Counted from the first letter of the stretch, positions 34,331 to 34,468 are shown. The stretch: 64,000 bases of DNA from a virus (IMGVR_UViG_3300044797_000394:92163-156162), one strand, 5' to 3'. The notes: a model not told the origin generated them from the sequence alone. A program made the numbers and translations.

Positions 34331-34468
34331 ATGTTCATCGAATCGCCCCTTAGTGGGGACCTGTAGCTGTACACGGGCTTCACGTAGCTGCCCAGAGGGC
34401 CGCCTCCATTACGTTTGTTCCTCAGTTCAATTGAGCAAACGTCCTTTCAAAAATGGAGCCTGTCATGA
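34331..34468 (+). other. leader ORF with two in-frame UAG codons and RGPP arrest motif
   Basis: MFIESPLSGDL*LYTGFT*LPRGPPPLRLFLSSIEQTSFQKWSLS-TGA; TAG at 34364 and 34385; final TGA overlaps ATG 34465. Confidence 0.7.

What the first reader, a model, noticed from the sequence alone, without database searches (positions are those of the whole stretch)
34331..34468. Leader peptide with a stop-codon-gated RGPP arrest motif
Seen: TAG at codons 12 and 19 sit in a repeated GTAGCTG context, and RGPPP starts at codon 22. Termination at UAG followed by C is relatively weak (established). Two serial ambers would make the response roughly quadratic in readthrough, giving switch-like behaviour (inference). 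An arrest peptide that is only made after stop-codon readthrough would be a new regulatory logic, the amber counterpart of prfB frameshift autoregulation.
Basis: partly seen in the sequence, partly recalled or inferred. Interest (0 to 1): 0.85.

Follow-up and report, generated by a model that had tools for sequence, protein, structure and literature searches.

The report
Stop-codon-gated ribosome-stalling leader in phage
A large phage starts a small operon with a tiny leader gene in which two UAG stops must be read through before the ribosome reaches a stalling Arg-Gly-Pro-Pro motif; in related phages the leader's stop codon always matches the phage's own stop-reading tRNA, so this looks like a natural, apparently unpublished switch that reports whether stop-codon readthrough is working.

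Summary
ATG 34331 opens a 45-codon frame with TAG at codons 12 and 19, RGPPP at codons 22-26, and a TGA that overlaps the ATG of the next gene.

Taken alone, these features are within chance. RGPP occurs 9 times in the six frames of this 156-kb phage, and GTAGCTG is not enriched.

Comparison with 12 related loci makes the element real:
- **Start:** the ATG sits 5-8 nt after a -10 box, as in a leaderless mRNA.
- **Frame:** stop and RGPP are always in frame with that ATG, although spacings vary.
- **RGPP codons:** they vary only at synonymous sites.
- **Stop type:** each leader has in-frame stops of one type only.

That stop type matches the suppressor tRNA encoded nearby: TAG with CUA in six loci, TAA with UUA in one, TGA with UCA in one (8 of 8 readable).

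The RGPP codons pair with the Shine-Dalgarno sequence and AUG of the downstream gene, and the helix shows compensatory changes. The operon reads leader, unknown gene X, small ORF, PTH2, suppressor tRNAs.

Best reading: readthrough by the phage tRNA lets ribosomes reach RGPP. They stall there and free the start site of X, and through coupling the start of PTH2.

The stall, the ON direction and the leaderless start are inferred. This scan has already noted the same class on other genomes. I found no paper on a natural example.

The parts
34295..34323 (+). Promoter-like site TTGACA-N17-CATACT. Its -10 box ends 7 nt before ATG 34331, so the transcript is predicted to be leaderless.
   Evidence: scores it 10 of 12. 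It is the only intergenic site with at least 10 of 12 in the 156-kb genome. TTGAC[AG], then a -10 box, then ATG after 5-8 nt is kept in all 12 relatives with upstream sequence. The transcription start itself was not measured.
34331..34468 (+). Leader ORF of 45 codons with two in-frame UAGs. Its stop TGA overlaps the start of gene X (ATGA).
34364..34366 (+). First gating stop, UAG followed by CUG (codon 12).
   Evidence: A stop at the equivalent place is present in 13 of 13 leaders, and its type matches the local suppressor tRNA.
34385..34387 (+). Second gating stop, UAG followed by CUG (codon 19).
   Evidence: It is present in window, L002, L003, L005 and L022, and is replaced in frame by TTT in L004.
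34394..34408 (+). Arg-Gly-Pro-Pro(-Pro) codons. They are the presumed arrest site and also the 5' strand of the helix that sequesters the SD and AUG of gene X.
   Evidence: RGPP is kept in 13 of 13 leaders with synonymous changes only. Pairing with the start region is shown. RGPP is an experimentally robust arrest motif (PMC12992588).
34373..34382 (+). Second anti-SD stretch between the two UAGs, seen only in this window. It can pair with 34454-34463.
   Evidence: duplex -15.5 kcal/mol. Not conserved in relatives, and its meaning is unexplained.
34411..34442 (+). Apical hairpin (10 bp, 12-nt loop) between the RGPP strand and the SD.
   Evidence: The equivalent hairpin in relatives has compensatory changes in 8 of 9 pairs.
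34455..34467 (+). Translation initiation region of gene X: SD GGAG 34455-34458 and AUG 34465-34467.
   Evidence: P(unpaired) of the SD is 0.00-0.02, second lowest of 85 genes with an SD. Homologues of X start at the Met of 34465, not 34453.
34465..34926 (+). Gene X, 153 aa, the first gated gene. It belongs to a conserved phage family of unknown function.
   Evidence: 83 homologues. No Pfam or PHROG hit. The AF2 model has pLDDT 85.7 and is helical, with no significant fold match.
34923..35111 (+). Small Cys-rich ORF of 62 aa. Its start overlaps the stop of X (ATGA), and its end overlaps the start of PTH2.
   Evidence: ORFs of 63-66 aa sit at the same place in L002 and L003.
35098..35433 (+). 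PTH2-type peptidyl-tRNA hydrolase.
   Evidence: Pfam PF01981, E = 4.8e-08. PTH2 is present in the same operon in L003, L073, L121 and L075.
35463..35540 (+). tRNA with an 8-nt anticodon loop containing CCUA.
   Evidence: ARAGORN and Rfam, 44 bits. It lies 29 nt after PTH2, which leaves no room for a promoter of its own.
35546..35618 (+). Amber suppressor tRNA, anticodon CUA.
   Evidence: ARAGORN and Rfam, 59.8 bits.

Best explanation
The region 34295-34468 is the control region of a phage 'suppressor-tRNA operon': leader, gene X, a 62-aa ORF, PTH2, then two CUA-type tRNAs.

Proposed sequence of events:
1. A sigma-70-like promoter makes an mRNA that starts at or next to AUG 34331, so the leader is read as a leaderless mRNA.
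2. Without suppression, the ribosome is released at UAG codon 12, or at UAG codon 19.
3. The downstream RNA then keeps a helix in which the Arg-Gly-Pro-Pro codons and the next few bases pair with the Shine-Dalgarno sequence and AUG of gene X. X stays untranslated, and so do the 62-aa ORF and PTH2, whose starts overlap the end of the preceding gene and so are probably coupled to it.
4. When the phage's own CUA tRNA is made, charged and able to outcompete RF1, ribosomes pass both UAGs.
5. They reach RGPP and stall there. RGPP is a motif shown experimentally to arrest bacterial ribosomes and to resist EF-P.
6. The stalled ribosome covers the 5' strand of the helix, so the start site of X is freed for repeated initiation.

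The leader therefore converts 'stop-codon readthrough is working' into expression of X and PTH2. Two serial UAGs sharpen the threshold.

Shown here: the conserved frame, the coding constraint on RGPP, the match between stop type and anticodon, the helix with covariation, and the operon content.

Inferred: the leaderless start, the arrest itself, arrest meaning ON, and any feedback on tRNA synthesis.
For: 1. **Frame.** In 13 leaders the distances ATG-to-stop (6-33 nt) and first-stop-to-Arg (15-45 nt) vary but are always multiples of 3. 14 of the 15 ATGs after the -10 box are in frame.
2. **Stop census.** Between ATG and Arg there are 18 in-frame stops over 180 codons, against 5 in the other two frames together. 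Each leader has one stop type only.
3. **Coding constraint on RGPP.** Seven leaders were found through homology of gene X alone: window and L002-L007. In these, the 12 nt encoding RGPP vary at five positions, all synonymous (AGA/CGA/CGT, GGG/GGC, CCG/CCT, CCT/CCG/CCC). L005 has CCG CCG, which keeps Pro-Pro but breaks the CUCC anti-SD.
4. **Stop matches anticodon, 8 of 8 loci with enough flank.**
   - TAG leaders with CUA tRNAs: window, L002 and L003, L022 in G003 and L021 in G002, and L208. In G002 the CUA tRNA is the only tRNA in a complete 196-kb genome.
   - The TAA leader L026 in G001 has a UUA tRNA about 400 nt after the operon's PTH2.
   - The TGA leader L121 has a UCA tRNA directly after PTH2.
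   - The TAA and TGA cases came from a search pattern that did not specify the stop.
5. **RNA helix.**
   - The RGPP strand pairs with SD + AUG in the MFE fold of 9 of 10 leaders.
   - Duplex z-score averages -3.3 against shuffles.
   - RNAalifold gives a consensus structure.
   - A covariance model built on 5 leaders finds 7 others.
   - 85% of cells are paired, against 71.6% in shuffles and 35-43% when partners are slid. 14 pairs show compensatory changes.
   - In the window, P(unpaired) of the SD is 0.00-0.02.
6. **RGPP as an arrest motif.** It supported the most robust arrest, was refractory to EF-P, and is excluded from proteomes (PMC12992588). This phage has no RGPP or RAPP in 169 predicted proteins, against 23 in six frames.
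7. **Genetic code.** The genome uses the standard code. Long genes have no in-frame TAG, and TAG ends 37 of 169 genes.
8. **Operon content.** PTH2 is present in 5 of 5 operons checked.
9. **Specificity.** None of about 270 decoy pattern hits has the full layout. All 6 hits that do are followed by a gene of the X family.
Against: - There is no experimental datum: no transcription start, no ribosome profiling, no proteomics.
- Six of the 13 leaders were retrieved with a pattern that fixed the non-synonymous bases of RGPP. Only the seven homology-found leaders count for the codon argument.
- The RGPP bases are also constrained by pairing with the SD and AUG, so part of their conservation is at the RNA level.
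- Equilibrium folding with a ribosome footprint placed on RGPP opens the start site clearly in only about half of the leaders. It does not in the window (0.34 to 0.33), where a second anti-SD at 34373-34382 can take over.
- SD occlusion as strong as here is seen in about 13% of genes in this GC-rich genome.
- The promoter match is not significant on its own.
- Nascent chains at the stall would be only 12-24 residues long.
- In G002 and L208 the tRNA lies convergent to the leader, so it is not co-transcribed with it.
- The frame after RGPP is not uniform: 9 leaders end in ATGA, 3 run in frame into X, and 1 is in another frame.
Confidence: 0.72

Rival explanations
1. The leader is translated and gated by the stop, as above, but the output is not arrest-driven unmasking of the SD. 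One possibility is that ribosomes passing RGPP slowly run on. They then make X by termination-reinitiation at AUGA, or as an in-frame fusion. Another is that the stalled ribosome blocks Rho loading on the C-rich leader, as in tnaC, so that transcription continues into X, PTH2 and the tRNAs.
For: Nine of 13 leaders end in a TGA that overlaps the start of X, and three run in frame into X. So a ribosome that gets past RGPP would yield X in 12 of 13. In the window, modelled arrest does not open the start site. The tRNAs follow PTH2 without room for a promoter, so polarity would matter for tRNA output.
Against: RGPP is conserved at the codon level, and it was the motif that supported the most robust arrest in the published tests. 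That makes little sense if ribosomes simply run through. The frame after RGPP is not conserved (L208 is in a third frame), and the peptide sequence after RGPP is variable. No U-tract terminator follows the hairpin. The covarying helix joins the RGPP codons precisely to SD + AUG.
Confidence: 0.17
2. The region is an ordinary 5' UTR with an SD-sequestering structure, opened by temperature, a protein or a small RNA. The ATG, the TAGs and 'RGPP' are by-products of RNA-level constraints and are never translated.
For: The CGNGGCCCUCC bases pair with GGAG...GUCAUG, so they are constrained as RNA. ATG 34331 has no SD. The codon-usage score of the leader frame is neutral to negative. The single-sequence features are within chance.
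Against: This reading does not explain several findings:
- All spacings are multiples of 3, and a stop is enriched in exactly that frame.
- Variation within RGPP is confined to synonymous positions. L005 breaks the anti-SD but keeps Pro-Pro.
- The ATG always sits at the predicted transcript start.
- Above all, the stop type tracks the anticodon of the neighbouring suppressor tRNA in 8 of 8 loci.
Confidence: 0.05
3. The functional unit is only the mini-ORF (Met plus 2-10 codons plus stop). It would act like a lambda bar-type minigene, generating peptidyl-tRNA drop-off that relates to the PTH2 gene. The RGPP part would be RNA structure only.
For: In 8 of 13 leaders the ORF up to the first stop has only 2-3 codons besides Met. 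PTH2 is conserved in the operon. That bar minigenes are toxic when Pth is limiting is from my own knowledge and was not checked here.
Against: This reading does not explain the in-frame relation between the stop and RGPP over variable distances. It also does not explain the synonymous-only variation, the in-frame replacement of the second TAG by TTT in L004, or the stop-anticodon match.
Confidence: 0.04
4. The frame is a readthrough extension of the upstream zf_Tbcl gene (33956-34288). That gene ends in TAG and is in the same frame as the leader, which would give three serial TAGs.
For: In the window, 33956 and 34331 are in the same frame. That frame has no TAA or TGA until 34466.
Against: An open extension of 59 codons is within the usual range for TAG-ended genes here: the median is 29 and 7 of 37 are longer. 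In L002, L003 and L006 the zf_Tbcl gene ends in TGA. In L003 and L004 other genes lie between it and the leader. The conserved promoter and ATG lie between the two. Pfam finds nothing in the extension.
Confidence: 0.02

Closest known systems
RAPP/RGPP-type regulatory arrest peptides (ApdA, ApdP, ApcA; SecM with RAGP; CruR; Streptomyces lividans RAPP/RGPP uORFs)
   Same: Both are a short upstream ORF with an R-[AG]-P-P motif close to the regulated gene. In both, the stall site overlaps the strand that sequesters the downstream SD, so a stalled ribosome should free it. RGPP itself supported the most robust arrest and was refractory to EF-P (PMC12992588, PMC10951233, PMC10987492).
   Different: The known examples are complete ORFs of tens to hundreds of residues, mostly with a signal or membrane segment, and the arrest is relieved by secretion, insertion or a ligand. 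Here the motif lies behind one or two in-frame stop codons, and the peptide is 12-24 residues with no targeting signal. The input is whether the stop is read through, and the host is a phage operon for a suppressor tRNA. Standard ORF calling cannot see such leaders.
Engineered amber-gated leader peptides (Liu, Qi, Yanofsky and Arkin 2011, Nat Biotechnol 29:164; reviewed in PMC6412442)
   Same: A UAG placed inside a regulatory leader peptide (tnaC or trp type) makes downstream expression depend on a CUA suppressor tRNA. Multiple UAGs raise the on/off ratio.
   Different: Those are synthetic constructs, with a transcriptional (Rho or attenuator) output and unnatural amino acids. The element here is natural and conserved, pairs the stop with the phage's own tRNA, and uses an RGPP arrest over an SD helix.
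prfB (RF2) autoregulatory recoding site
   Same: An in-frame stop early in the message reports the competition between a release factor and an alternative decoding event, and so sets expression.
   Different: prfB uses a +1 frameshift at UGA, helped by an internal SD, and regulates the very protein that reads the stop. Here decoding stays in frame, the competitor is a suppressor tRNA, and no frameshift site is present.
Leader-peptide attenuators that sense charged tRNA (trpL, hisL, pheL)
   Same: A short leader ORF whose translation past particular codons depends on the supply of one tRNA, with the result read out through alternative RNA pairing.
   Different: Those use sense codons, stall when the tRNA is lacking, and control an intrinsic terminator. 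Here the codon is a stop, progress happens when the tRNA is present, no terminator is seen, and the stall is peptide-driven.
Stop-codon recoding in phages (code 15 / code 4 phages with suppressor tRNAs; bioRxiv 10.1101/2021.08.26.457843, PMC9523058)
   Same: A phage-encoded suppressor tRNA is proposed to gate phage gene expression in time.
   Different: In recoded phages many late genes carry in-frame stops. This genome is in the standard code, with no in-frame TAG in long genes and TAG ending 22% of genes. The stops are concentrated in one dedicated sensor leader.

Membership tests
RAPP/RGPP-type regulatory arrest peptides | R-[A/G]-P-P motif in the translated frame of a small upstream ORF | tested here: met
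   RGPP is at codons 22-25. It is kept in 13 of 13 leaders with synonymous-only variation.
RAPP/RGPP-type regulatory arrest peptides | The stall site overlaps an RNA structure that sequesters the SD or start of the regulated downstream gene | tested here: met
   The RGPP codons pair with GGAG and GUCAUG.
RAPP/RGPP-type regulatory arrest peptides | Elongation arrest demonstrated (peptidyl-tRNA accumulation, toeprint) | not testable with these tools
   Only published data on the motif in other contexts are available (PMC12992588).
RAPP/RGPP-type regulatory arrest peptides | An uninterrupted ORF from start codon to motif | tested here: not met
   One or two in-frame stops precede the motif in all 13 leaders. 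This is the point of difference.
Sec/YidC monitoring substrates (SecM, MifM, VemP, ApdA/ApdP) | N-terminal signal or membrane segment, so that translocation force releases the arrest, with a sec or yidC gene downstream | tested here: not met
   Only 10-21 residues precede the motif and there is no hydrophobic segment. The downstream genes are X, a 62-aa ORF and PTH2.
Transcription attenuators of the trpL type | Alternative hairpins ending in an intrinsic terminator (GC stem plus U tract) before the structural gene | tested here: not met
   The scan finds no terminator-like site between 34289 and 34465. The hairpin 34411-34442 is followed by CCUUUCAAAAAUGG, not a U run.
prfB-type autoregulatory frameshift | In-frame stop with a shift to the +1 frame and an upstream internal SD | tested here: not met
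   ATG, stops and RGPP share one frame in all leaders. No SD-like element precedes the stops.
Stop-codon-reassigned phage (code 15) | In-frame TAG in many conserved genes, and TAG not used as a terminator | tested here: not met
   Long ORFs have no in-frame TAG. A crude gene call covers 95% of the genome in code 11, with 37 of 169 genes ending in TAG. Extension lengths after TAG are like those after TGA or TAA.

The most novel reading that the evidence does not exclude
Large phages that bring their own nonsense-suppressor tRNA carry a dedicated translational sensor of suppression. It is a leaderless mini-leader in which the cognate stop codon (UAG, UAA or UGA, co-evolving with the tRNA anticodon) gates access to an RGPP arrest site. 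The codons of that site mask the next gene's ribosome-binding site. One rare readthrough event is thereby amplified into many initiations. Through coupling and relief of polarity, this may lock the operon (X, PTH2, tRNAs) into an ON state. That would be a natural bistable 'code-switch' checkpoint during infection.
Probability: 0.45. Interest if true: 0.92.

Novelty: new variant of a known kind. Interest (0 to 1): 0.85.

Why it matters
Arrest peptides are known as sensors of secretion, membrane insertion, metals and small molecules. Leader peptides are known as sensors of charged tRNA for sense codons. A natural element that senses stop-codon readthrough, with its stop codon co-varying with a phage suppressor tRNA, would add a new input class to both.

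It would also help to explain why phages with a standard genetic code carry suppressor tRNAs: they appear to check that suppression works before committing to the next genes.

It links suppression to a PTH2-type peptidyl-tRNA hydrolase, and it points to a conserved unknown protein (X) as the regulated output.

The element is invisible to ORF callers, because the ORF is 'broken', so similar switches are likely to be under-reported.

It also offers a compact natural part for genetic-code-expansion circuits, where engineered versions already exist.

Tried and rejected
- **Whole-genome recoding (TAG as sense).** Rejected.
- **A 2178-aa ORF followed in frame by a 279-aa ORF after one TAG** (genome 22409-29785). 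It looked like programmed readthrough, but the second ORF has its own SD and an ATG two codons after the TAG, and no Pfam domain spans the junction.
- **GTAGCTG as a repeated operator.** It is not enriched, and no other copy of the leader sequence exists in the genome.
- **DNA-level relatives in the phage collection.** Only tRNA matches were found.
- **Word-based protein search for X.** It returned only X itself, and the look-up of its contigs was withheld.
- **Protein-pattern scans for X or the AAA ATPase** in viral and metagenome contigs found nothing. Alignment A1 was too diverse for that tool.
- **RNAalifold on a plain MAFFT alignment of 10 leaders.** It gave no structure because the hairpins were misaligned. 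This was solved with equal-length leaders and a covariance model.
- **Genome-contig scan for a prophage copy, to infer the host.** There were 120 pattern hits and no true family member among them.
- **Function of X.** No PDB sequence match, no Foldseek match at E <= 0.001, and only generic helical-hairpin matches with Z below 7 by VIA-align.
- **Poole et al. 1995 on the fourth base.** The paper could not be read. Its existence and general claim are confirmed by a citing paper. The specific ranking, with UAG-C weak, rests on my memory.

Full report
**What is in the window**

The window is the last 64 kb of a single-contig virus record of 156,162 bp with 54% G+C.

Translation of 34331-34468 gives MFIESPLSGDL*LYTGFT*LPRGPPPLRLFLSSIEQTSFQKWSLS*. 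TAG is at codons 12 and 19, each within GTAGCTG, and RGPPP is at codons 22-26. The final TGA overlaps ATG 34465 of the next gene.

A promoter-like site, TTGACA-N17-CATACT (34295-34323), ends 7 nt before the ATG. No Shine-Dalgarno sequence precedes the ATG, so the leader would be read from a leaderless mRNA.

About 1 kb downstream lie a PTH2-type peptidyl-tRNA hydrolase (35098-35433) and two tRNAs. One has an 8-nt anticodon loop holding CCUA (35463-35540). The other has an ordinary CUA anticodon (35546-35618).

**Is it more than chance in this sequence alone? No.**

- GTAGCTG is not enriched in the genome.
- RGPP occurs nine times in the six frames of the genome.
- The promoter match is not significant in shuffles, although it is the only intergenic site with at least 10 of 12 in the genome.
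- The codon-usage score of the leader frame is neutral.
- The SD of the downstream gene is strongly occluded, with P(unpaired) 0.00-0.02. That ranks second lowest of 85 genes, but about 13% of genes reach comparable values.

The genome is not recoded. Long genes have no in-frame TAG. A crude gene call covers 95% of the genome in code 11, and TAG ends 37 of 169 genes. Open extensions after TAG are no shorter than after TGA or TAA.

The leader frame happens to be the frame of the upstream zf_Tbcl gene, which ends in TAG. That turned out to be coincidence, as explained below.

**Relatives**

The downstream gene, which I call X (34465-34926, 153 aa), has no Pfam or PHROG family. An exhaustive HMMER search found 83 homologues. 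Their N-termini align with the Met of 34465.

Contigs encoding six of them (L002-L007) all carry the same upstream element. DNA pattern scans added six more:
- L021 and L022, found with a TAG-containing pattern.
- L026, L121, L131 and L208, found with a pattern that does not specify the stop.

This gives 13 leaders in all.

Among about 270 other pattern matches, none has the complete layout. All six pattern hits that do have it are followed by a member of the X family.

**Evidence that the frame is translated**

- In every leader with upstream sequence, an ATG lies 5-8 nt after the -10 box of a TTGAC[AG]-N17 promoter.
- ATG-to-stop distances are 6, 9, 12, 15, 21 or 33 nt.
- Distances from first stop to Arg codon are 15, 24, 30, 33, 36, 39 or 45 nt.
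- All of these are multiples of three.
- Between ATG and Arg there are 18 stops in that frame, against 5 in the other two frames together. Each leader has stops of a single type.
- In L004 the second TAG is replaced in frame by TTT.

Seven leaders were found only through homology of X. In these, the 12 nt encoding RGPP vary at five positions, all synonymous. L005 has CCG CCG, which keeps Pro-Pro while breaking the CUCC anti-SD. The six pattern-derived leaders cannot be used for this argument, because the pattern fixed those bases.

**The stop matches the tRNA**

Wherever enough flanking DNA could be read, a suppressor tRNA cognate to the leader's stop lies within about 0.4-4 kb.

| Locus | Leader stop | Nearby suppressor tRNA |
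|---|---|---|
| window | TAG | CUA and CCUA (8-nt loop) |
| L002 | TAG | two CUA |
| L003 | TAG | CUA and UCUA (8-nt loop) |
| L022 (G003) | TAG | CUA plus one odd loop |
| L021 (G002) | TAG | CUA, convergent; the only tRNA in a complete 196-kb genome |
| L208 | TAG | CUA, convergent |
| L026 (485-kb G001) | TAA | UUA, directly after the operon's PTH2 |
| L121 | TGA | UCA, directly after PTH2 |

That is eight of eight, including both non-amber cases. This is the strongest single argument that the stop is decoded by the phage tRNA.

PTH2 is in the operon in all five loci examined. In the window, the stop of X overlaps the start of a 62-aa ORF (ATGA). The end of that ORF overlaps the start of PTH2. 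The gate on X should therefore spread downstream by translational coupling.

**RNA structure**

In the minimum-energy fold of 9 of 10 leaders, the Arg-Gly codons pair with GUCAUG (the start codon of X). The Pro-Pro codons plus the next few bases pair with the SD.

- The duplex is stronger than shuffles, with mean z of -3.3.
- RNAalifold on five equal-length leaders gives this helix plus an apical hairpin.
- A covariance model built from those five finds seven other leaders, including the window.
- On the model-guided alignment, 85% of cells are paired, against 71.6% in shuffles and 35-43% with slid partners.
- 14 pairs show compensatory changes. These include the two pairs just 3' of the Pro codons (GC/CG/UA/AU) and 8 of 9 pairs in the hairpin.
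- That alignment is fitted to the model, so it leans towards the structure. The controls are nevertheless clear.

**Mechanism**

RGPP is documented as the R-x-P-P variant that supported the most robust arrest. It worked with different N-terminal contexts, was refractory to EF-P, and is depleted from bacterial proteomes (PMC12992588). This phage has no RGPP or RAPP in 169 predicted proteins.

I therefore read the element as a stop-gated arrest leader:
1. Without suppression, ribosomes leave at the UAG, at least 15 nt before the helix. X stays masked.
2. With the phage tRNA active against RF1, ribosomes reach RGPP and stall on the masking strand.
3. The start site of X is then freed.

The variable frame and sequence after RGPP fit a ribosome that normally goes no further. 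Nine leaders end in ATGA, three are fused in frame to X, and one is in another frame.

Two UAGs, as in the window and four relatives, would sharpen the response. The synthetic-biology literature reports this effect for multiplexed UAGs (PMC6412442).

Steps not shown:
- The transcription start.
- Initiation at 34331.
- The arrest itself.
- That arrest means ON.

Equilibrium folding with a footprint placed on RGPP opens the start site in about half of the leaders. It does not in the window, where a second, non-conserved anti-SD (34373-34382) can substitute. A Rho-type or run-through read-out remains a live rival.

**Rejected readings**

- **Extension of zf_Tbcl.** In L002, L003 and L006 that gene ends in TGA. 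In L003 and L004 other genes intervene.
- **A purely RNA-level 5' UTR, or a bar-like minigene.** Neither explains the frame conservation, the synonymous pattern or the stop-anticodon match.

**Comparison with what is known**

The element works like the RAPP/RGPP arrest-peptide uORFs. It fails one of their implicit features, an uninterrupted ORF. It also lacks the targeting segment of the Sec/YidC monitoring substrates.

It is conceptually close to engineered amber-gated tnaC or trp leaders (Liu et al. 2011, cited in PMC6412442). More loosely, it resembles prfB autoregulation and the trpL-type attenuators.

Three literature searches found no description of a natural example.

The scan's own notebook shows that other agents have reported the same class on other phage genomes, with the same stop-tRNA match. 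Examples are e1-5712851, e1-5379223 and e1-5711283. I read those notes after my own tests, and they are not independent evidence.

Gene X remains of unknown function. The AF2 model is confident (pLDDT 85.7) and shows a helical hairpin plus a small helical domain, with no significant fold match.

**Verdict**

This is a real, conserved regulatory element. I class it as a new variant of a known kind, an arrest-peptide leader with a new input logic, and rate it of high interest.

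Noticed in passing
window 35463-35540; L003:2509-2583; L075:3352-3425: Next to the ordinary CUA tRNA there is often a second tRNA with an abnormal anticodon loop: 8 nt with CCUA in the window, 8 nt with UCUA in L003, and an odd loop in G003. The leader stops here are UAGC, not UAGG, so a quadruplet reading of the leader is not obvious.
   Followed up: partly
window 33165-34288: Three consecutive genes just upstream of the leader all end in TAG: a DnaJ-domain protein, a 98-aa ORF and zf_Tbcl. Their in-frame extensions to the next TAA or TGA are 10, 4 and 59 codons. 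zf_Tbcl lies upstream of the leader in L002, L003 and L004 (Pfam hits) and probably in L006, whose upstream ORF ends the same way.
   Followed up: partly
L001:110-7483 (genome 22409-29785, outside the window): A 2178-aa ORF ends in TAG and is followed in the same frame, after TAG GGT, by an ATG-started 279-aa ORF with an SD-like AAGGTG. It is probably two genes, but a readthrough fusion in the presence of the CUA tRNA is possible. Neither has Pfam domains.
   Followed up: partly
window 34373-34382: A second anti-SD stretch between the two UAGs pairs with the SD of gene X over 10 bp. It is absent from relatives.
   Followed up: partly
L074:4173-4247 (G002): A complete 196-kb phage genome with terminal repeats encodes a single tRNA. 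It is a CUA suppressor, 2 kb from a TAG-gated leader and convergent to it.
   Followed up: partly
window 34465-34926 and homologues P0002-P0083: Gene X defines a phage protein family with no Pfam or PHROG model. Its invariant residues are R18, I30, W42, K45, R46, G49, T52, R53, L57, E71 and W102. Many members end in a short EVAA-like tail.
   Followed up: partly
whole genome (G000): No RGPP or RAPP occurs in 169 predicted proteins, although the six frames contain 9 and 14. This matches the published depletion of these motifs from proteomes.
   Followed up: yes
window 35638-35940 and L003:2687-3265: A small winged-helix (MarR-like) protein follows the tRNAs in the window and in L003, with weak PHROG and Pfam hits. 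It is a possible transcriptional partner of the module.
   Followed up: no
window 34301-34317; L006:213-246: Inverted repeats lie inside or around the promoter spacer: ATCCCTTCAGGGAT in the window, and GGGGCAT...ATGCCCC around the -10 box in L006. They are not conserved in sequence among relatives and may be operators.
   Followed up: no
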